Shown one piece after another: positions 2,729 through 47,544 of a stretch of 64,000 bases of DNA. A program made the translations under genes and the position numbers. A model generated the notes under the pieces. The model worked only from the letters and a program-made list of their open reading frames with translations, did no database searches and was not told the origin of the DNA. Origin of the DNA: an uncultured Desulfobacter sp. (GTDB lineage Bacteria; Desulfobacterota; Desulfobacteria; Desulfobacterales; Desulfobacteraceae); contig OY762614.1 in assembly GCA_963666145.1 (NCBI GenBank), forward strand, positions 2,969,617 to 3,033,616, written 5' to 3'. The first letter of the stretch is position 1, and each line of letters starts with the position of its first letter.

Positions 2729-2982
2729 ATTAAGACGCACAATACAAAGATAGATGTAAAAACACAAGGGCGCCGAACAGCATGTTTTTCCATGAAACCG
2801 GGTCGGCCAATGATTATTCTTGAATGAATTCCGGAAAGACGATAAATTTATATAGACATGGTTCCAGTCTACGACAGATTTTGAAAAAGCGGTTGCTGTT
2901 CTCGCAACTTTACCGTTGATCACTGTGATTGCTTTTTTTAATGATTGATCACCAGCCCCACCCCCATCGGATAAGGAGCGGC

Positions 2983-4203
2983 ATGGCTGAAAAAACAGAT
3001 CCCAAAAAACCGGAAGCCAACAGTCACGGCAAGGGCGGTCCCCAAATTGAGACAGGGGCTTTGCGCCTGCTGGGAAATGACGAGGTCTATGTCAGCCTTT
3101 TCAAGGAAAATTGTGCTGTCATGCTCATGGTTGATCCTGACAATTTAAATATCATTGACGCCAACCAAGCCGCCCTCCTTTTTTACGGCTGGACCCATGA
3201 GCAAATCATCCGGAAAAAGGCAACAGATATTAACAATATTAACGAAAGCGTACTGGTCCCGAAAATCAGGGAGGCCATGCATAAAAAAAACTCTCATTTT
3301 TTTACCAGCCACTGCATGGCCAATGGGACTATCCGGGATGTTGAAGTTTATGCAAGCCCCATTATTTTAAACGGGGAAAAACGTATCCATGCCATTATCC
3401 ATGATACCACCGAACGTAAAAAAGCAGCCAAGGCCCTTGCCCGGTCTGAACAGAAACTTGCCGAACAGGCCATACGCACAAATCATCTTGCCTCTCTGGG
3501 TGAACTTGCAGCCGGCGTGGCCCATGAGATTAACAATCCTGTGACCGGCATTATCAGTCTGGCAGAAGTCCTTATGGATAAATTTGCAGAAGATGAAAGG
3601 GAAAGAAAAATCCCTGAAATGATTATCCACGAAGGTGAGCGGATCAGCAAAATCGTAAAAAATCTGCTCTCCTTTGCCAAAGACAGAGACGATGATTTCA
3701 GGCCGGTCTGCGTAAAGGATGTGCTCAAACTGTCGGTCTCCCTTATGGAAAGACAGATTTTAAAGGACGGCATACATTTATCCATTCATCTTCCCCAACA
3801 GCCTTTGAGCGTCAATGGCCGAAGCCATGAACTCCAGCAGGTATTCATGAATATCATCAGCAATGGCCGTTATGCCATCAATGCCAGATACCCGGATCCG
3901 GATGAAAACAAAATATTTGAAATCCATGGAAAAATCCTGAAAATCCAAAAACAAGAGTATGTCCGGTTAATCTTCTTTGACAGGGGATCCGGCATTCCCT
4001 CTCCGCTTCTGGACAAAATAACAGCCCCGTTTTTTTCAACAAAACCCCATGACCAGGGAACAGGGCTTGGCTTGTCCATCAGCCATGGAATTATAGACAG
4101 CCACGGGGGAAGGCTTTGGTTTGAAAGCCTGGAAAACGAGTACACAAAGGTGATGGTTGATCTGCCCCTGAACATGGGCCGGCCTTTGGACGAAAGCATA
4201 TGA
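2983..4203 (+). CDS. PAS-domain sensor histidine kinase (NtrB-like)
   Basis: RBS AAGGAG before ATG 2983; PAS region, H-box LAAGVAHEINNP, N-box NIISNGRYA, G2 box GTGLGLSI. Confidence 0.92.
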   Translation: MAEKTDPKKPEANSHGKGGPQIETGALRLLGNDEVYVSLFKENCAVMLMVDPDNLNIIDANQAALLFYGWTHEQIIRKKATDINNINESVLVPKIREAMHKKNSHFFTSHCMANGTIRDVEVYASPIILNGEKRIHAIIHDTTERKKAAKALARSEQKLAEQAIRTNHLASLGELAAGVAHEINNPVTGIISLAEVLMDKFAEDERERKIPEMIIHEGERISKIVKNLLSFAKDRDDDFRPVCVKDVLKLSVSLMERQILKDGIHLSIHLPQQPLSVNGRSHELQQVFMNIISNGRYAINARYPDPDENKIFEIHGKILKIQKQEYVRLIFFDRGSGIPSPLLDKITAPFFSTKPHDQGTGLGLSISHGIIDSHGGRLWFESLENEYTKVMVDLPLNMGRPLDESI

Positions 4204-6151: not shown

Positions 6152-6523
6152 ATGGCAAAAATTCTAATAGTTGATGATGAAGAAAGTATCCGTTTTACCT
6201 TCTCCCTCATACTGACGGGTGCAGGCCACGAGGTGTTTAAAGCTGAAAGTAAATCCGAGGCAATGGCAATTCTCGATTCAACAGAAATTGATGTGGCAAT
6301 TGTAGACATGTTTCTGGGCTCCCATAACGGTATGGATCTCATCAAATATGTACACATGGCTCATGGTTCCTGCACCCCCCTCCTGATGTCTTCATACCCC
6401 TTGCCCGCGCCCCGGAAGTTAAACGCTCATTTTTTTGCATTTGTGCAAAAGCCGGTAAAAAAACTCGCCCTCTGCAACGCCGTTGAGGGTGCAATAGCCA
6501 GTAAAAGCCTTAACAGGTGTTAA
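6152..6523 (+). CDS. Single-domain response regulator (CheY-like)
   Basis: VDDEE, phospho-Asp in IVDMF, S/T position, KP; no output domain. Confidence 0.9.
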   Translation: MAKILIVDDEESIRFTFSLILTGAGHEVFKAESKSEAMAILDSTEIDVAIVDMFLGSHNGMDLIKYVHMAHGSCTPLLMSSYPLPAPRKLNAHFFAFVQKPVKKLALCNAVEGAIASKSLNRC

Positions 6524-7163: not shown

Positions 7164-9023
7164 ATGAAATTCAGTCTTAAAAATAAATTTATCATACCCA
7201 CCGTAACCACTGCGGTCATCTGCCTGGGAGCCATATCATTATTTTCATACTTGAAAGCCAGTCAGGCATTGAAAAACGTTATATCCTCCGAAGTTAAATA
7301 TGTATCCTCGTCCATCTCAAAACAGGTGAGCCAGTGGATCTTTGAACGGGAAAGCGATATTTCACAGCTTGCACAGGAAGACCTGTTTAACAAAGCGATC
7401 TCATCTCTGGGGCCGGACGAAGTCAAGGCCGCTGATTCCCGCCTCAACCAAATCAAAAAAAGCAGTGCCCTGTTTGATAATATCCACCTGGCCGGTCCGG
7501 ATGGGATGGTTATGGCATCTTCGGATACCGGCCTTGTCGGATCACTGAATCTCTCCACCAGAGAATACTTTAAAGATGCCCTTACAGGAACACTTTCCCT
7601 GTCCCAGGTTATTAAGAGCAAGACCACGGGCCAGCCTGTTTTCTGCATTGCAGCACCGGTAAGGCAGGGAAATAAAATCCATGGGGTCCTTGTGGGTGTC
7701 ATCAATATGAACCACTTCACAGCCCAGTTTATTGACACGGAAAAAGTGGGCCAAAACGGCTACGTCTATATGGTGAACAAGTCAGGCGTCGTACTGGCCT
7801 ATCCGGATAAATCAAAAATATTATCCCTGGATGTGAGCCAGTATGAATTTGGCCGCAACCTTCTGTCTCAGCAGGACGGGCTTATGGAATACAAATTTAA
7901 GGGTGTGGATAAAATCGTTGGATTCGCAAAAGAAAAAACCACCAACTGGATTATTGCATCCACAGCAGATAAATCCGAACTCTTTGCACCGGTCATTGCC
8001 CTGCGGAATATCAGCATCACCATTGCCATTGTCAGCATCATACTCATTGGCTCCATAATCTTGCTTGTAACCCGCTCCATTGTGGGCCCCCTCAACCGGA
8101 TCATTGAGGGCATGAACGAGGCCGGCAATCAGGTGGCTGCCGCATCAACCCAGGTGGCCATGGCCAGTCAGTCTCTGGCTGAAGGTGCATCAGAACAGGC
8201 AGCCTCTGTCGAAGAGACCTCTGCCTCCATGGAGGAGATGGCCTCCATGACCCAAAGCATGGCTGGAAATGCAAACCAGGCAGATCTTCTTTCAAAAGAA
8301 TCACATGGGATTGTTACCCGGGCCAATGAATCCATGGAGGCGCTCACTCGGTCCATGTCCGATATCTCAACGGCCAGTGAAGAGACCTCAAAAATTATTA
8401 AAACCATTGATGAAATCGCCTTCCAAACCAATTTGCTGGCCCTTAATGCCGCAGTTGAAGCAGCCCGGGCCGGGGAAGCAGGCGCAGGATTTGCCGTCGT
8501 GGCCGATGAGGTTAGAAACCTTGCCATGCGGGCAGCTGAGGCGGCAAAAGATACGGAAAAGCTCATTGCCGGGACCATGGAAAAAGTAAGCAATGGTTCT
8601 GCACTGGTAGCCACGACCAATGAGGCCTTTGTGGCGGTTGATTTAAGCACATCCAAGGTCGGGGAGCTTGTCATGGAAATGTCCCAGGCGTCCAGGGAGC
8701 AGTCCGCAGGCATCTCCCAAGTCAATGTCGCCATCGCGGAAATCGACAAGGTGGTGCAGCATAATGCTGCCAACGCAGAAGAATCCGCATCCGCAGCCGA
8801 AGAGATGAATGCCCAGGCCGAGCAGCTCAGAGATTATGTAAACGATCTTCACGCCCTGATTACAGGGGAGGATACCCGGTTACAGACTTCTCACCCCTCC
8901 CGCCAGATCATGGGAAGATCATCCCGGGGCCAGAAAAAAATTGCAACTTCGCAGGCTCGGGAAATCAGGTCGGATCAGATGCTTGACTTTGATGAAGACG
9001 GTTTTAAGGATTTTGCTGCCTGA
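7164..9023 (+). CDS. Methyl-accepting chemotaxis protein with a dCache-like sensor
   Basis: Two TM segments, Cache-like STREYF and YVYMVNKSG, signalling hairpin [34 protein letters not shown]; start set at MKFSLK. Confidence 0.95.
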
Positions 9024-9044
9024 TCCTTGCTAAACTATTCAAGA

Positions 9045-9074
9045 GGCGGGCTTTAGTCTGCCCCTGTTTTTTTT
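9045..9074 (+). terminator. Rho-independent terminator after the MCP
   Basis: GGCGGGC-TTTA-GTCTGCC stem followed by T8. Confidence 0.6.
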
Positions 9075-9112
9075 CGGGGCCCGTGCATTTACAAAACAAT
9101 GCACGGGCCCCG
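9075..9112. repeat. Perfect 15-bp inverted repeat
   Basis: CGGGGCCCGTGCATT-N8-AATGCACGGGCCCCG. Confidence 0.8.
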
Positions 9113-9276
9113 GAGTATATTTACTTGATTTCAATTAGAAAGAGCCCGGCCTTAGGCCAAGCATCAACGTCTTGAAAAAAACTATCCCAATATGATAATT
9201 TAATCGACCATAAAAATATGCTTGCATCCCCAATTTACGGTGCAGGCATTTGCTTTTTAAAATAAGGATTTAATTT

Positions 9277-10371
9277 ATGCCGCTGCTCAAAGAACGTCGG
9301 AAAACCCGACAGATAAAGGTGGGAGTACAACCTGTGGGCTCCGGGGCACAGGTTTCGGTTCAGTCCATGACCAACACCCAGACCCAAGATGTGTACGCTA
9401 CCGTAAATCAAATATTGTCCCTGGAAAAGGCCGGATGCGAAATTGTCCGGGCAGCCGTGCCGGATATGGAAGCGGCTAAGGCCCTAAAAGAAATTAAAGC
9501 GCAGATTCACATCCCTTTGATTGCTGATATTCATTTTGACTGGCGTCTGGCCATTGCTTCTGCTGAATCCGGCGTGGATGGACTGCGGATCAATCCGGGT
9601 AACATCGGCACGATCGACAAAATAAAAGCCGTGGTGGACTGTGCCAAGGCGCACGACCTTCCCATCCGCATCGGGGTAAACGGCGGATCTTTGGAAAAAG
9701 AGATTGAAAAGCAATACGGTGTGACAGCCCGGGGCATGGTGGAAAGTGCCTTGGCCAATATCCGGATTTTAGAAGATTTGGGGTTTTACGATATCAAGGT
9801 CTCCTTGAAAGCGTCGGATGTGGAACGTACCGTGGAGGCCTACCGACTGCTTGCTCCGTTGACAGATGTTCCCTTTCATGTGGGCGTTACCGAGGCGGGC
9901 GGCCTGTATGCCGGCATCACCAAATCCGCCATCGGCATCGGTATGCTGCTCTCCGAAGGGATCGGGGACACCATCCGGGTCTCTTTGACCCGGGACCCGG
10001 TGGAAGAGATCCGTACCGGATTTGAGATTTTACGGGCATTGGGCCTGCGCCACCGGGGGCCGGAGCTGATTTCCTGTCCCACCTGCGGGCGGTGTAAAAT
10101 AAATTTGTTTAAAATTGCCGAACAGGTAGAAAAAGCTTTACTTGAGCGCACAGCACGGATTAAAGTTGCTATTATGGGATGCGTAGTGAATGGTCCGGGC
10201 GAAGCCAAAGAGGCGGACATCGGTATTGCCGGTGGTGACGGCACGGGAATTTTGTTTAAAAAGGGTAAAGTTGTCCGTAAAATCGACCAAACGTGTCTTG
10301 TGGATGAATTGATTAAAGAGATTGACGCAATGACGTTAAATTCGGAGGAAGTAAATGGGAAAGAAAGTTAA
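9277..10371 (+). CDS. ispG: (E)-4-hydroxy-3-methylbut-2-enyl-diphosphate synthase
   Basis: VQSMTNT, ADIHFD, RINPGNIG, IRIGVNGGSL, CPTCGR, GCVVNGPGEA. Confidence 0.98.
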   Translation: MPLLKERRKTRQIKVGVQPVGSGAQVSVQSMTNTQTQDVYATVNQILSLEKAGCEIVRAAVPDMEAAKALKEIKAQIHIPLIADIHFDWRLAIASAESGVDGLRINPGNIGTIDKIKAVVDCAKAHDLPIRIGVNGGSLEKEIEKQYGVTARGMVESALANIRILEDLGFYDIKVSLKASDVERTVEAYRLLAPLTDVPFHVGVTEAGGLYAGITKSAIGIGMLLSEGIGDTIRVSLTRDPVEEIRTGFEILRALGLRHRGPELISCPTCGRCKINLFKIAEQVEKALLERTARIKVAIMGCVVNGPGEAKEADIGIAGGDGTGILFKKGKVVRKIDQTCLVDELIKEIDAMTLNSEEVNGKES

Positions 10372-44754: not shown

Positions 44755-44996
44755 AGGTTTTAATTTCCATCCTCTTGTTTTTATTTTAAATCATTAAAGC
44801 CAGTATATCATTAAGTCGCCTTGTGAACAAACCCAATTCGTTTTATTTAAGCACGGCGTGTTATGAATATTGCCGACCGGGGGAAGATGAATTTAGAAAT
44901 ATATTCAACACTATCATTATTGCCGTGAAAAGTCTTTAAACTTCAACGGCGCTTTACGCAAAATTTTTAGACGCGGTTTATGCAAAGTCGGGTACG

Positions 44997-45281
44997 CTAC
45001 CAATTGAGAAGTTCGTTTATCTCCTCTTCGGTGAGCAGGTTTGTAAGATCTTGCCTCCGGCGGTCCCCGTTCTTTCTTCGTTCCTGCTTTCTGCGGTCAA
45101 CGCCGAGGCGTGCGTTGGTAATTGAGCGCAACCATTCAAAAAAGGAGCGTCGCTGTTTACTTGAGCTGTTGCGAAAATCATGTCGACGTTCAGCCCCGCA
45201 GCGTCTGTCTTTGTTACTGCGCCGGTTGTGATTGTTTTGGCGCCGGTCATGGGGATATGGGATTTTGGGCGGGCTCGTCAT
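44997..45281 (-). CDS. Small Arg-rich hypothetical protein with [DE]RR repeats and a C-terminal LTEEEINELL motif
   Basis: Patterned, non-random sequence; occupies an otherwise empty gap on the same strand as the hyp genes. Confidence 0.7.
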   Translation of the reverse strand: MTSPPKIPYPHDRRQNNHNRRSNKDRRCGAERRHDFRNSSSKQRRSFFEWLRSITNARLGVDRRKQERRKNGDRRRQDLTNLLTEEEINELLNW

Positions 45282-45491
45282 GTCTCACATTACTCTCTTT
45301 TTTATCTGCCTTTTTCTTATCGGGGCCGGGGCCTTTCCTGGGACAATGTTTTGTAAACCGGCTGCACTATAGTCCCGGCTGATTTTTCCCGAGACTTCAA
45401 TAGGACAGGAATTTACTTTTTGTCAACCCAAATATAAAACACGTCCAGAAGATTGTGATCCCGGCACCATTCTGATATATCCTGATTTATC

Positions 45492-46778
45492 ATGGCATAT
45501 ATTAATAAACAGATGCTCACGGCTGTTGTGGCTGATGAACACGGAAATATTTTTGAATTGGATGGATATGCAGCGGCAGGCATGTCCGGAGATGAGTTTT
45601 TCATTTTGACAAAATCCGGGACCTGTCCCATGCCCCACGGCAGTGAACTGATGATGCTGCCGGACAGAGCCCCCATTGTGTTCAACCTGGTCTCCGACCA
45701 GTTTGAAATTCTTGACACCAATCCGTTTGAGCCTGACCAGCGCATTTATCCGGTTGGGGTGTTCAACTCCCCGGGGTACGTGAATCAGCATTTTTGTGCC
45801 TACGATGACACCGGAATAGAGACGCCCCTGCCCCTGTTTTCCTATGGTGCCGTGGGGTTTGGAAAAAATGATTTCAGATCGGCCGCCCTTCAGGTGGATG
45901 ACGAACCCCGGCAGGATCTGCGGTTGATGCCCATTGACCAGGTTCAAAAAGGGGTCGATAAATTCAGAAAAAAATATCCGGCCAACCGGCTGATGCGCCA
46001 CCTGGAAAAATGTGCCCTGGAGTACGGGTGTCCTGCCGGTAAAAATTTTTTTCTGGGTCGGTATGAAGCCCCCCTGCCGACCTCCGTGGTCTGTAACGCC
46101 CGGTGCCTTGGATGCATTTCCCTTCAAACGGAAAATAATTTGTGCGCCTGCCAGGACAGAATCGCGTTTATCCCCGATCCCGAAGAGATCGCAGGTGTTG
46201 CCCTGGAACATATCCTGAAAGTGGAAAAGGCTGTGGTCAGTTTCGGCCAGGGGTGTGAGGGGGAACCGTTAACCTCGGCGGATGCCATTGAACAGGCCAT
46301 TGTTTTGATTCGGGAAAAAACCGATCAGGGCACCATTAACCTGAACACCAATGCAAGTTTACCCGACCGGGTGGAACGGTTGTGCAACGCAGGGCTCGAC
46401 AGCATGCGCGTGAGTATGAATTCGGTACGCAAGGAATGTTACACCACCTATTTTCGTCCCAGGTCTTATTCTTTTGAAGATGTGGTGGACAGTATAAAAA
46501 GAGCCAGGGCAAAGGGCCGTTTTGTGGCAATCAATTACCTGAACTGCCCGGGTTTTACCGATTGCCAAATGGAAAAGCAGGCGCTTATGGATTTTATCCG
46601 GGAAACGGACATCAACATGATCCAGTGGCGCAATCTTAATTTTGATCCCCGGAACTATATCCGCATCATGGAAAATGCCGCACCCGGCGGTGCCCCCACC
46701 GGCATGGCAAACCTCATAAAAGACCTAAGCCAAGTATTTCCCCATCTCATCCACGGCTATTTCAATCCACCCCGATAA
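45492..46778 (+). CDS. Radical SAM protein of unknown function
   Basis: CNARCLGC, SFGQGCEGEP, NLNTNA, RVSMNS. Confidence 0.9.
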   Translation: MAYINKQMLTAVVADEHGNIFELDGYAAAGMSGDEFFILTKSGTCPMPHGSELMMLPDRAPIVFNLVSDQFEILDTNPFEPDQRIYPVGVFNSPGYVNQHFCAYDDTGIETPLPLFSYGAVGFGKNDFRSAALQVDDEPRQDLRLMPIDQVQKGVDKFRKKYPANRLMRHLEKCALEYGCPAGKNFFLGRYEAPLPTSVVCNARCLGCISLQTENNLCACQDRIAFIPDPEEIAGVALEHILKVEKAVVSFGQGCEGEPLTSADAIEQAIVLIREKTDQGTINLNTNASLPDRVERLCNAGLDSMRVSMNSVRKECYTTYFRPRSYSFEDVVDSIKRARAKGRFVAINYLNCPGFTDCQMEKQALMDFIRETDINMIQWRNLNFDPRNYIRIMENAAPGGAPTGMANLIKDLSQVFPHLIHGYFNPPR

Positions 46779-46860
46779 TATTATTGAAAAACCTTGCTCG
46801 ATTTGATTTAATCCATAGTTTATTATTGAACGGTAGTTAACTTGTTAAGGAAAGGGCAGC

Positions 46861-47544
46861 ATGTTACCCGATATCAGCGGCATCATTATAATAGCCGGTA
46901 ATTACGGCAGCGGCAAAAGTGAGACGGCTGTTAACCTGGCAGCCGTGTCCCGGCGTGCGGGGAAAAGTGTCAAGATAACGGATCTGGATCTGGTCAACCC
47001 CTATTTCAGAAGCCGGGACGCCCAAAAGCCCCTGGAGGAGCTGGGTGTGGAAGTGGTCTTGCCCGACAAAAAATACATGCATGCGGACCTGCCGATTCTA
47101 ACCCCGGGCGTGGCCGGCATGATTAGAAATCCGGCCCAGGTGACCATTTTGGATGCCGGCGGCGATGATGCCGGCGTAAGGGTGCTTGCGGCCCTGGCTG
47201 ACGTGCTTGAAAAAGGTGCCGTCAAATTGCTCCAGGTGATCAATCCCTTGCGTCCCGAAACCTGCGATGTTCAAGGTTGTCTTAGAATCAAGGCCAAAAT
47301 TGAAGCTGCCGCAAAATTGCCCGTCGCAGGCTTGATTTCCAATGCCAATCTCCTTGACGAAACCACCGTGGAAATTATCTATGACGGCTACAATCTGGTG
47401 CGCCGGGTATCCGAAGCCACCGGCCTTAATATTGAATTTATAACAGCGTCCACCAGGCTTTTGCCCCAACTTGAAACGGAACGGATCACCTGCCCCATCC
47501 TGCCCATTGACCGGTTGCTGGCACCGCCCTGGACACGCACTTAA
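46861..47544 (+). CDS. P-loop NTPase (CobQ/MinD/ParA-like) preceding the oxidoreductase operon
   Basis: GNYGSGKSE, DLDLVNPYFRSR, DAGGDD, INPLRP. Confidence 0.85.
   Translation: MLPDISGIIIIAGNYGSGKSETAVNLAAVSRRAGKSVKITDLDLVNPYFRSRDAQKPLEELGVEVVLPDKKYMHADLPILTPGVAGMIRNPAQVTILDAGGDDAGVRVLAALADVLEKGAVKLLQVINPLRPETCDVQGCLRIKAKIEAAAKLPVAGLISNANLLDETTVEIIYDGYNLVRRVSEATGLNIEFITASTRLLPQLETERITCPILPIDRLLAPPWTRT

What the first reader, a model, noticed from the sequence alone, without database searches (positions are those of the whole stretch)
44997..45281. 94-aa protein combining [DE]RR repeats with a FliM-like CheY-binding peptide
Seen: DRRQ, NRRS, DRRCGAERR, QRRS and DRRKQERRKNGDRRR, followed by a C-terminal LLTEEEINELL. 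Established: the FliM N-terminal LSQAEIDALL helix binds CheY-P, and RxxxR motifs bind c-di-GMP in PilZ proteins. Inference: a small disordered adaptor that sequesters or scaffolds a phosphorylated receiver domain, perhaps under c-di-GMP or RNA control; in effect a stand-alone motor-switch mimic. Standard annotation would call it hypothetical.
Basis: partly seen in the sequence, partly recalled or inferred. Interest (0 to 1): 0.65.

Follow-up and report, generated by a model that had tools for sequence, protein, structure and literature searches.

The report
Unnamed arginine-rich small protein family
This is a real, conserved gene for a 94-residue, mostly unstructured, arginine-rich protein that ends in a short acidic helix; it belongs to an unannotated family of sulfate-reducing Desulfobacterota whose function is unknown, and nothing tested here links it to CheY or c-di-GMP beyond motif resemblance.

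Summary
Window 44997-45281 (-) encodes a 94-aa protein (pI 11.4, 20 Arg) with five [DE]RR units among eight RR pairs, ending in LLTEEEINELLNW.

It is a real gene. dN/dS is 0.04-0.29 among same-genus orthologues, and antisense frames are closed in most relatives. It has no Pfam, NCBIfam, PDB, phage, plasmid or defence match.

It founds a stand-alone family: 364 proteins, 105 clusters at 50% identity. Members carry Desulfobacula, Desulfotignum, Desulfopila and Desulfobulbaceae names. Presence is patchy, always single-copy and monocistronic, with no conserved neighbours.

Invariant features are ERRxDxR, an amphipathic helix (WLRS...RL), GVDRRK, and, 18-19 residues later, the terminal helix L[ST]xEE[IL]xDLL (130/141 members). 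AlphaFold shows only two short helices.

The tail is conserved, but its FliM likeness is generic: a tail profile ranks the genome's own FliM 146th, and the Asp of the FliM Ile-Asp pair is not kept. The CheY at 6152-6523 does not co-occur. The published c-di-GMP peptide motifs of CleD are not met (0/212).

Best guess (about 0.3): a disordered adaptor whose Arg modules bind a guanine-rich anion and whose tail docks a partner. An RNA-binding role is equally likely. Earlier notes of this scan describe similar DRR small proteins on other DNA.

The parts
44997..45281 (-). CDS of the 94-aa Arg-rich protein (stop codon 44997-44999)
   Evidence: ORF list and translation; purifying selection with dN/dS 0.04-0.29; homologues; antisense frames closed in most orthologues.
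45171..45248 (-). N-terminal RR array, residues 12-37: DRR-x4-NRR-x3-DRR-x3-ERRHDFR
   Evidence: R27, E31, R32, R33, D35 and R37 are invariant and R13, R14, R20, R21, R26 are at least 90% conserved in 122 sequences. ERRxDxR is present in 196 of 212 members.
45087..45143 (-). Amphipathic helix plus invariant core, residues 47-65: FEWLRSITNARLGVDRRK
   Evidence: AlphaFold helix 47-58 or 47-55. W50, R52, S53, L59 are at least 90% conserved; R58, G60, V61, D62, R63, R64, K65 are invariant. Hydrophobic moment 1.02.
45048..45098 (-). Second RR array, residues 62-78: DRRKQERRKNGDRRRQD (DRR-x9-RRxxD in this protein)
   Evidence: R69, R74 and R75 are invariant and R68 is at least 90% conserved. Local alignment to the CleD CSP1 peptide scores 38, shuffle p about 0.005-0.01. 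The final Asp is not conserved in the family.
45000..45038 (-). C-terminal acidic capped amphipathic helix, residues 82-94: LLTEEEINELLNW
   Evidence: AlphaFold helix 85-92, pLDDT about 80. L83, E87, L91 are invariant. The motif is in 130 of 141 members, 1-2 aa from the C-terminus and 18-19 aa after the core. It is the only acidic segment, net -4.
45397..45436 (-). Conserved sigma-70-type promoter block: TATATT (45431-45436), then TTGACA (45421-45426), 18 nt, TATTGA (45397-45402). This implies a 5' UTR of about 110 nt
   Evidence: The block is nearly invariant in 7 same-genus orthologous loci. It is kept even where an IS sits immediately upstream. The consensus scan lists ATCACA-17-TATATT at 45459-45431. 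No sigma-28 or sigma-54 consensus is shared across the 14 upstream regions scanned.

Best explanation
The gene encodes an intrinsically disordered, strongly basic small protein that I read as a two-module adaptor.

Module 1 is the set of Arg-rich segments: four [DEN]RR units ending in the invariant ERRHDxR, and the invariant GVDRRK followed by two further RR units. I propose that it clamps a guanine-containing anionic ligand and folds on binding. The most likely ligand is an intercalated c-di-GMP dimer, as the DRR and RRxxD peptide of Caulobacter CleD binds. RNA is the main alternative.

Module 2 is the terminal acidic helix LLTxEEIxDLL, set at a fixed 18-19 residues after the core. I propose that it is a docking peptide for a partner protein. 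The only known receptors for peptides of this type are the alpha4-beta5-alpha5 face of CheY-like receivers and the MinD-like ATPase FlhG. In the free state the acidic tail may lie back on the basic region, so that ligand binding would release it.

Shown here: the gene is real; the family exists; the invariant residues, fixed spacing, predicted disorder, stand-alone architecture and own promoter are as described. Inferred: the ligand, the partner and the coupling between them.
For: - The gene is under purifying selection.
- The family has 364 proteins, all small and stand-alone, with the conserved region at the C-terminal end.
- The acidic residue before each RR is conserved, as are ERRxDxR (196/212) and GVDRRK. 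This argues for specific recognition rather than bulk charge.
- D-R-R triads are direct guanine contacts in the CSP1:c-di-GMP NMR structure, and that peptide is unfolded until ligand binds (PMC7382256).
- Residues 48-77 align to CSP1 (EWxxxx..xGxDRR...G.R.R) with score 38, shuffle p about 0.005-0.01.
- AlphaFold gives only two helices, with pTM 0.24-0.26, from either 40 or 122 sequences.
- The tail is conserved in 130 of 141 members, at the extreme C-terminus and at fixed spacing.
- The tail matches 7 of 10 positions of the LSQxEIDxLL motif. That motif binds CheY-P and Cle proteins (PMC5677366) and FlhG (10.1101/2022.04.21.489128).
- The accessory, patchy distribution fits a signalling accessory rather than a core function: 12 of 101 family genomes and 8 of 21 genus genomes examined.
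- A canonical PilZ gene lies directly upstream in the Desulfopila clade.
Against: - No binding was or could be tested.
- The published ARR and CSP motifs are not met by the family: [YF]xGP[DE][RK]R 0/212, DRR-x11-[RK]RxxD 0/212, relaxed version 24/212.
- The alignment to CSP1 was chosen after the fact and is only marginally significant.
- The tail's FliM likeness is generic: FliM ranks 146th against the tail profile, and the Asp after Ile is not conserved.
- No che, fla, GGDEF or EAL neighbour recurs across independent contexts.
- The PilZ adjacency is a single synteny block seen in related genomes.
- The CheY at 6152-6523 does not co-occur.
- A net charge of +12 would equally suit RNA or DNA binding.
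Confidence: 0.3

Rival explanations
1. It is a small RNA-, ribosome- or DNA-binding basic protein. The Arg-rich segments bind nucleic acid, as arginine-rich motifs do. The acidic C-terminal helix is an auto-inhibitory or partner-recruiting tail, as in SSB or HMGB-type proteins.
For: - pI 11.4, net charge +12, predicted disorder, and charge segregation with a single acidic tail.
- [DE]RR-rich linkers and other small DRR ORFs occur elsewhere in the genome.
- In two same-genus genomes that lack the gene, the same hypC-rSAM slot holds a cspA-like cold-shock gene. This is suggestive at most.
- The family fails the published c-di-GMP peptide motifs.
Against: - Distribution is patchy and accessory even within one genus, which is unusual for a ribosome or nucleoid component.
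- The strictly conserved acidic residue in front of each RR, and the invariant GVDRRK, are not typical of non-specific nucleic-acid binders.
- No neighbouring RNA-metabolism genes recur.
- No Rfam element lies nearby.
Confidence: 0.3
2. This is the first reader's model taken literally: a stand-alone FliM or CheZ-tail mimic that sequesters or scaffolds phosphorylated CheY. The Arg-rich part serves only as a spacer or localiser.
For: - The tail LLTEEEINELLN lines up with the genome's FliM N-terminus EILSQDEVDSLLD, identical or conservative at 12 of 12 positions.
- From my own knowledge, it also resembles the C-terminal CheY-binding peptide of CheZ, including its C-terminal location.
- The Glu matching FliM E9/E10 is invariant in 156 of 156 tails.
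- All 12 carrier genomes of the family sample have FliM.
Against: - The tail profile does not single out FliM: rank 146 of 646.
- The conserved Ile-Asp pair of FliM is I-x-D here.
- 86 of 101 sampled genomes have FliM anyway.
- There is no che or fla neighbourhood and no sigma-28 promoter.
- The CheY at 6152-6523 is absent from most carrier genomes.
- The Arg-rich regions are the most conserved part of the protein, which is hard to explain as a spacer.
Confidence: 0.1
3. The tail is an EIDAL-type peptide for the MinD-like ATPase FlhG (or another ParA/MinD ATPase), so the protein modulates flagellar number or placement rather than chemotaxis.
For: The FliM N-terminal EIDAL motif is necessary and sufficient for FlhG binding in polar flagellates (10.1101/2022.04.21.489128). 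The tail shares E-I-x-x-L-L with it. All carrier genomes have FliM.
Against: There is no flhF or flhG neighbourhood. The motif mismatch is the same as for CheY. The ParA-like P-loop gene at 46861-47544 is near the gene only in the window's own clade.
Confidence: 0.05
4. It is a precursor peptide (RiPP) for the divergently transcribed radical-SAM enzyme at 45492-46778, or an otherwise spurious or non-functional ORF.
For: The small ORF lies head-to-head with a radical-SAM gene in the window.
Against: - The radical-SAM gene is present in 21 of 25 genus genomes, whereas the small gene is in 8.
- In other genera the small gene has entirely different neighbours.
- An IS separates the two genes in G508 and G076 without loss of the small gene.
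- There are no conserved Cys, Ser or Thr core residues.
- Strong purifying selection over the full length rules out a spurious ORF.
Confidence: 0.03

Closest known systems
[quoted passage not shown]
   Same: - Short, linear, intrinsically unfolded Arg-rich sequence built on D-R-R.
- x-G-x-D-R-R preceded by a Trp-containing hydrophobic stretch: EWVEAVAYVGPDRRR in CleD against EWLRSITNARLGVDRRK here.
- In this protein, a second RRxxD 9 residues later.
- Local alignment score 38, shuffle p about 0.005-0.01.
- A functional link of the known peptide to the FliM N-terminal motif.
   Different: - The family lacks the tandem [YF]xGP[DE][RK]R units (0/212) and the DRR-x11-[RK]RxxD spacing (0/212).
- It has no stacking aromatic residues.
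- It is stand-alone, not a C-terminal extension of a receiver domain.
- It carries about six [DE]RR units rather than two.
- Its taxa are Desulfobacterota rather than Alphaproteobacteria.
- c-di-GMP binding is untested.
FliM N-terminal CheY-P/FlhG-binding peptide (LSQxEIDxLL, 'EIDAL' motif)
   Same: A capped amphipathic helix L-[ST]-x-x-E-[IL]-x-x-L-L at a protein terminus next to a disordered region. The Glu is invariant. It is one of only two terminal occurrences of the strict pattern in this genome.
   Different: It lies at the C-terminus of a stand-alone protein, not the N-terminus of FliM. The Asp after Ile is variable and the family's Asp is one position later. The family prefers Thr and Ile/Leu where FliM here has Ser and Val. 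The tail profile ranks FliM 146th.
CheZ C-terminal CheY-binding peptide (from my own knowledge, not checked with a tool)
   Same: A C-terminal location and an acidic amphipathic helix ending in D-L-L after a flexible linker.
   Different: There is no CheZ helical hairpin or catalytic Gln, and no Pfam hit.
PilZ N-terminal RxxxR c-di-GMP switch
   Same: RRxxxR follows the core in this protein (R63 R64 K Q E R68).
   Different: There is no PilZ beta-barrel, no D/NxSxxG and no PF07238 hit. RRxxxR is present in only 86 of 212 members.
Arginine-rich motif (ARM) RNA-binding peptides, and basic proteins with acidic auto-inhibitory tails such as SSB (from my own knowledge)
   Same: A disordered, Arg-dense sequence that may fold on binding, with a separate acidic C-terminal peptide.
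   Different: A conserved acidic residue precedes each RR. No RNA target or RNA-related neighbourhood was found.

Membership tests
Cle-type ARR / CSP c-di-GMP-binding peptide | Tandem [Y/F]xGP[D/E][R/K]R units (PMC5677366) | tested here: not met
   0 of 212 family members match; only the relaxed G-x-[DE]-[RK]-R is shared (212/212).
Cle-type ARR / CSP c-di-GMP-binding peptide | DRR-x11-(R/K)RxxD linear motif (PMC7382256) | tested here: not met
   Strict motif 0/212; relaxed [DE]RR-x9-13-[RK]RxxD 24/212. The window protein has DRR-x9-RRxxD, but the last Asp is not conserved.
Cle-type ARR / CSP c-di-GMP-binding peptide | C-terminal extension of a CheY-like receiver domain | tested here: not met
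   All 105 representative clusters are 41-181-aa stand-alone proteins with no other domain, apart from one weak 279-aa repeat hit (P0141), which is probably spurious.
Cle-type ARR / CSP c-di-GMP-binding peptide | Binds an intercalated c-di-GMP dimer with sub-micromolar Kd | not testable with these tools
   Needs ITC, MST, DRaCALA or NMR.
FliM N-terminal CheY-binding motif (LSQxEIDxLL) | Sequence pattern L-[ST]-x-x-E-[ILV]-x-x-L-L | tested here: met
   130 of 141 members match. In this genome the strict pattern occurs 5 times, at a terminus only in FliM and in this protein.
FliM N-terminal CheY-binding motif (LSQxEIDxLL) | Conserved Ile-Asp pair (its mutation abolishes CheY and Cle binding, PMC5677366) | tested here: not met
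   The position after Ile/Leu is A, S, N, E, R or K; the Asp (112 of 156) is one residue later.
FliM N-terminal CheY-binding motif (LSQxEIDxLL) | Part of a FliM (PF02154) protein or genomic linkage to che/fla genes | tested here: not met
   No Pfam hit; no che or fla neighbours in about ten contexts; no shared sigma-28 promoter.
FliM N-terminal CheY-binding motif (LSQxEIDxLL) | Binds phosphorylated CheY at the alpha4-beta5-alpha5 face | not testable with these tools
   No multimer prediction or binding assay was available. The CheY at 6152-6523 does not co-occur.
PilZ domain | RxxxR plus D/NxSxxG on a beta-barrel (PF07238) | tested here: not met
   No PF07238 hit; no strands in the AlphaFold models; RRxxxR in 86 of 212 members only.

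The most novel reading that the evidence does not exclude
The protein is a 'split Cle' system. It would be a free-standing c-di-GMP-binding arginine peptide that uses its FliM/CheZ-like C-terminal helix to dock on an ordinary CheY-type receiver. It would either make that receiver c-di-GMP-responsive in trans or sequester CheY-P when c-di-GMP rises. This would couple second-messenger level to chemotaxis output through a 94-residue disordered protein.
Probability: 0.08. Interest if true: 0.8.

Novelty: new variant of a known kind. Interest (0 to 1): 0.42.

Why it matters
Only one short linear peptide type is known to bind c-di-GMP, the Cle ARR, and it is known almost only as an appendage of CheY-like proteins in Alphaproteobacteria. 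A free-standing, naturally occurring Arg-rich mini-receptor with its own docking helix would be a new way to wire a second messenger, or RNA, to a partner protein. It would also be a natural counterpart of the engineered c-di-GMP-sequestering peptides.

Even without that, the work defines an unannotated family of about 360 members with sharply conserved residues. Current annotation calls these proteins 'hypothetical', and they are small enough to be missed or mis-started. The practical limit is that all functional statements are inference. The family is also narrow, confined to Desulfobacterota, and accessory.

Tried and rejected
- **Family and structure libraries:** Pfam, NCBIfam, PHROGs and PADLOC gave no hit. 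A profile search of PDB sequences found only a non-significant match to 1ihn (E 0.19).
- **Structure prediction:** AlphaFold2 with 40 and with 122 sequences gave no fold, only two helices, with pTM 0.24-0.26. Fold search was therefore not run.
- **Riboswitch or known RNA in the long 5' UTR:** none was found in the window or in nine related loci.
- **Promoter type:** no sigma-28 or sigma-54 consensus is shared among the 14 upstream regions. The one CCGATAA in the window is not conserved.
- **Conserved neighbourhood:** none exists beyond local synteny.
- **RiPP precursor of the adjacent radical-SAM enzyme:** rejected on distribution.
- **Mobile origin:** no plasmid or phage match.
- **Antisense ORF 44980-45231 (+) as the real gene:** rejected, because antisense frames are closed in most orthologues.
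- **FliM co-occurrence:** uninformative, 12 of 12 carriers against 86 of 101 overall.
- **CheY 6152-6523 as partner:** no co-occurrence. Only 43 of about 150 candidates per genome were scored, so this is a weak negative.
- **Literature:** searches for the family or for DRR small proteins found nothing specific.

Full report
**1. The observation**

The minus-strand ORF 44997-45281 reads MTSPPKIPYPHDRRQNNHNRRSNKDRRCGAERRHDFRNSSSKQRRSFFEWLRSITNARLGVDRRKQERRKNGDRRRQDLTNLLTEEEINELLNW. The protein has 94 aa, 20 Arg, pI 11.4 and net charge about +12. Its only acidic stretch is the last 13 residues.

It has the densest [DE]RR array of any six-frame ORF of at least 50 aa in the 6.3-Mb genome. The pattern L[ST].[EDQA]E[ILV][DNSEAT].LL occurs five times in 5.07 million ORF residues. 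Only two of these lie at a protein terminus: this C-terminus and the N-terminus of the genome's FliM, MSEILSQDEVDSLLDG.

**2. It is a real gene**

- A single-sequence search found 40 homologues. A profile search found 364. An exhaustive profile search found 105 clusters at 50% identity.
- Among five same-genus orthologues, differences concentrate at third codon positions, for example 8/9/31. dN/dS is 0.04-0.29.
- The sense frame is open in all 18 loci examined, while the antisense frames contain stops in most. The overlapping plus-strand ORF 44980-45231 is therefore an artefact of the Arg codons.

**3. Anatomy of the family**

Apart from one weak 279-aa repeat hit (P0141), all members are small, 41-181 aa. 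The longer ones look like over-extended starts. The conserved region is always at the C-terminal end, and no other domain is ever attached.

In an alignment of 122 sequences:
- Invariant positions are R27, E31, R32, R33, D35, R37, R58, G60, V61, D62, R63, R64, K65, R69, R74, R75, L83, E87 and L91.
- Positions R13, R14, R20, R21, R26, W50, R52, S53, L59, R68 and L92 are at least 90% conserved.

The consensus is ERRK-x3-RR-x3-DRR-x3-ERRxDxR ... WLRSxTNARLGVDRRKxERR-x3-DRRQ-x4-SLLTxEEIxDLLS.

The terminal helix motif is present in 130 of 141 members. It lies 1-2 residues from the C-terminus in 110 of them. It starts 18 or 19 residues after GVDRR in 99 of them.

AlphaFold2 with 40 or 122 sequences predicts only two helices, 47-58 and 85-92, in an otherwise extended chain. 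Mean pLDDT is 65-67 and pTM 0.24-0.26. Both helices are amphipathic. The protein is best described as intrinsically disordered with two pre-formed helices.

**4. Distribution and context**

- Source names on homologues are Desulfopila, Desulfobacula, Desulfotignum, Desulfobulbaceae and Desulfobacterales.
- In whole genomes the gene was found in 12 of 101 sampled genomes of the window's family, always as a single copy.
- It was found in 8 of 21 genomes of the genus examined: G000, G508, G091, G082, G076, G500, G501 and G070.
- It gave one clear hit among 400 other genomes of the phylum.
- There is no plasmid, phage, PHROG or PADLOC match.

In the window's own clade the gene lies between hypC-hypF-hypD-hypE (44754 downward) and a divergent radical-SAM plus P-loop pair (45492-47544). 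In G070 and in other genera the neighbours are entirely different. In the Desulfopila clade a canonical PilZ gene (RRFQRR ... DISVKG) sits directly upstream. That is one synteny block seen in three related genomes.

The gene is always monocistronic, with intergenic gaps of about 200-500 bp.

A sigma-70-type block is nearly invariant in seven same-genus loci: TATATT, then TTGACA-18 nt-TATTGA, at 45397-45436 on the minus strand. It is kept where an IS has been inserted immediately upstream. It implies a 5' UTR of about 110 nt. That UTR holds no Rfam element. No sigma-28 or sigma-54 motif is shared across genera.

**5. Testing the FliM/CheY reading**

The window's tail aligns with the genome's FliM peptide at every position, either identically or conservatively (LLTEEEINELLN against ILSQDEVDSLLD). 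The Glu equivalent to the functionally important FliM E9/E10 is invariant in 156 of 156 tails. This motif is the docking site for CheY-P and Cle proteins (PMC5677366) and for FlhG (10.1101/2022.04.21.489128).

The likeness is nevertheless generic:
- An HMM of the 156 distinct family tails, searched against all ORFs of the genome, scores itself 16.4 bits. The next hits score 9 bits or less and are unrelated internal helices, including an XRE-type HTH.
- FliM ranks 146th of 646 hits, at 1.2 bits.
- The family has Thr, Ile/Leu and x-Asp where FliM of this bacterial family invariably has Ser, Val and Asp-Ser. The Ile-Asp pair, whose mutation abolishes CheY and Cle binding in Caulobacter, is not kept.
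- S/T-x-x-E is also the ordinary helix N-capping box (my own knowledge).
- All 12 carrier genomes have FliM, but so do 86 of 101 sampled genomes.
- The CheY at 6152-6523 has an orthologue in only one other carrier, G091.

The tail is therefore a conserved terminal helix of the type that receivers bind. Nothing singles out CheY as its partner.

**6. Testing the c-di-GMP reading**

Earlier notes of this scan on other genomes (e1-782610, e1-3772709, e1-4944190) pointed to the CleD Arg-rich peptide. I read the two papers.
- CSP1 binds an intercalated c-di-GMP dimer through DRR-x11-(R/K)RxxD plus two tyrosines, and is unfolded without ligand (PMC7382256).
- The natural ARR is a tandem [Y/F]xGP[D/E][R/K]R (PMC5677366).

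The window protein aligns to CSP1 over residues 48-77 (EWLRSITNARLGVDRRK-QERRKNGDRRRQ against EWVEAV--AYVGPDRRRFNSADYKGPRKRK). The score is 38, against 23.5 +/- 4.4 for shuffles, p about 0.005-0.01. The protein contains DRR-x9-RRxxD.

Across the family, however, the strict CSP motif occurs 0 times in 212, a relaxed version 24 times in 212, and the ARR unit 0 times in 212. Only G-x-D-R-R is universal. A PilZ-like RRxxxR follows the core in 86 of 212, and there is no PilZ fold.

The family is therefore not a member of the ARR family. The argument that it works like one rests on three points: the conserved acidic-Arg-Arg triads, which are direct guanine contacts in CSP1; the disorder; and the marginal alignment.

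**7. Most likely mechanism**

I commit, at about 0.3, to a two-module adaptor.
- The Arg-rich segments bind a guanine-rich anion and fold on it. c-di-GMP is the first candidate and RNA the second.
- The terminal acidic helix, at fixed distance from the core, docks a partner protein.
- The charge segregation suggests the tail may mask the basic region until ligand binds.

The anatomy, conservation, disorder and autonomy of the gene are shown. The ligand, the partner and the coupling are inferred.

An RNA or nucleic-acid-binding small protein with an acidic regulatory tail is about equally likely (0.3). A pure CheY-P sponge (0.1), an FlhG ligand (0.05) and a RiPP precursor or spurious ORF (0.03) are less likely. 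The remaining probability goes to functions not considered here.

**8. Novelty and verdict**

The family is unannotated and I found no description of it in the literature I could search. If the main model holds, it is a new variant of a known kind: a free-standing relative, in function, of the Cle ARR peptide. Functional evidence is nil, and the family is narrow and accessory, so interest is moderate (0.42). The most novel reading not excluded is a 'split Cle' protein that couples c-di-GMP to a CheY in trans (probability about 0.08).

Noticed in passing
L058 (G045) 793-1501 and L060 (G087) 2784-3449; equivalent to window 44755-45491: In two more distant species of the same genus that lack the small gene, the same hypC / radical-SAM intergenic slot holds a cspA-like cold-shock protein gene ([30 protein letters not shown]...).
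   Followed up: partly
L064 (G508) 199-1332 and L019 (G076) 7341-8462: Two different transposase genes of about 375 aa sit between the radical-SAM gene and the small gene's promoter block, in two genomes independently. From the sequence they look ISAs1-like (...IDAMG.QKKIAE...HWGIEN.LHWVLD..FRED). The conserved TATATT/TTGACA block is retained right at the junction.
   Followed up: partly
G000:C1 about 5158391 (-), 5158742 (-), 4571775 (+): Three paralogous small ORFs form a second DRR family (...YDRRKSVRDGVIV[ST]LSFKKDRRKxPDRR...). Two of them are adjacent. Two further Arg-rich mini-ORFs lie at 305647 (+) and 3771917 (+). None was characterised.
   Followed up: no
G000:C1 about 2415981 (-) and 2084952 (+): Two chemotaxis-type proteins (352 aa and an ORF of 1098 aa or more) carry DRR-x-DRR ... 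DRR linkers immediately before what looks like a CheW-like domain (...AINIA[IV]V...YGLVVD..HDSEEI).
   Followed up: no
L027 (G037) 8962-9288; protein P0088: One genus has a variant in which the frame changes right after GVDRRKR, so the second RR array and the C-terminal helix are lost. The same altered C-terminus is seen in a second source, so it is inherited. It may be a pseudogene or a tail-less form.
   Followed up: no
window 45279-45293 (-): In the window (and G508) the upstream in-frame ATG is followed directly by TGA (ATG TGA GAC ATG). Close relatives read ATG/GTG TTA GAC ATG (MLDM...). The start has therefore moved three codons downstream, or the second ATG is the true start in all of them.
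   Followed up: partly
window 45492-47544 (+): A 428-aa radical-SAM protein with an unassigned N-terminal region of about 190 aa is paired with a 227-aa ParA/CbiA-like P-loop protein. The pair is conserved through the genus (21 of 25 genomes) upstream of a three-subunit 2-oxoacid:ferredoxin oxidoreductase. Its function was not examined.
   Followed up: no
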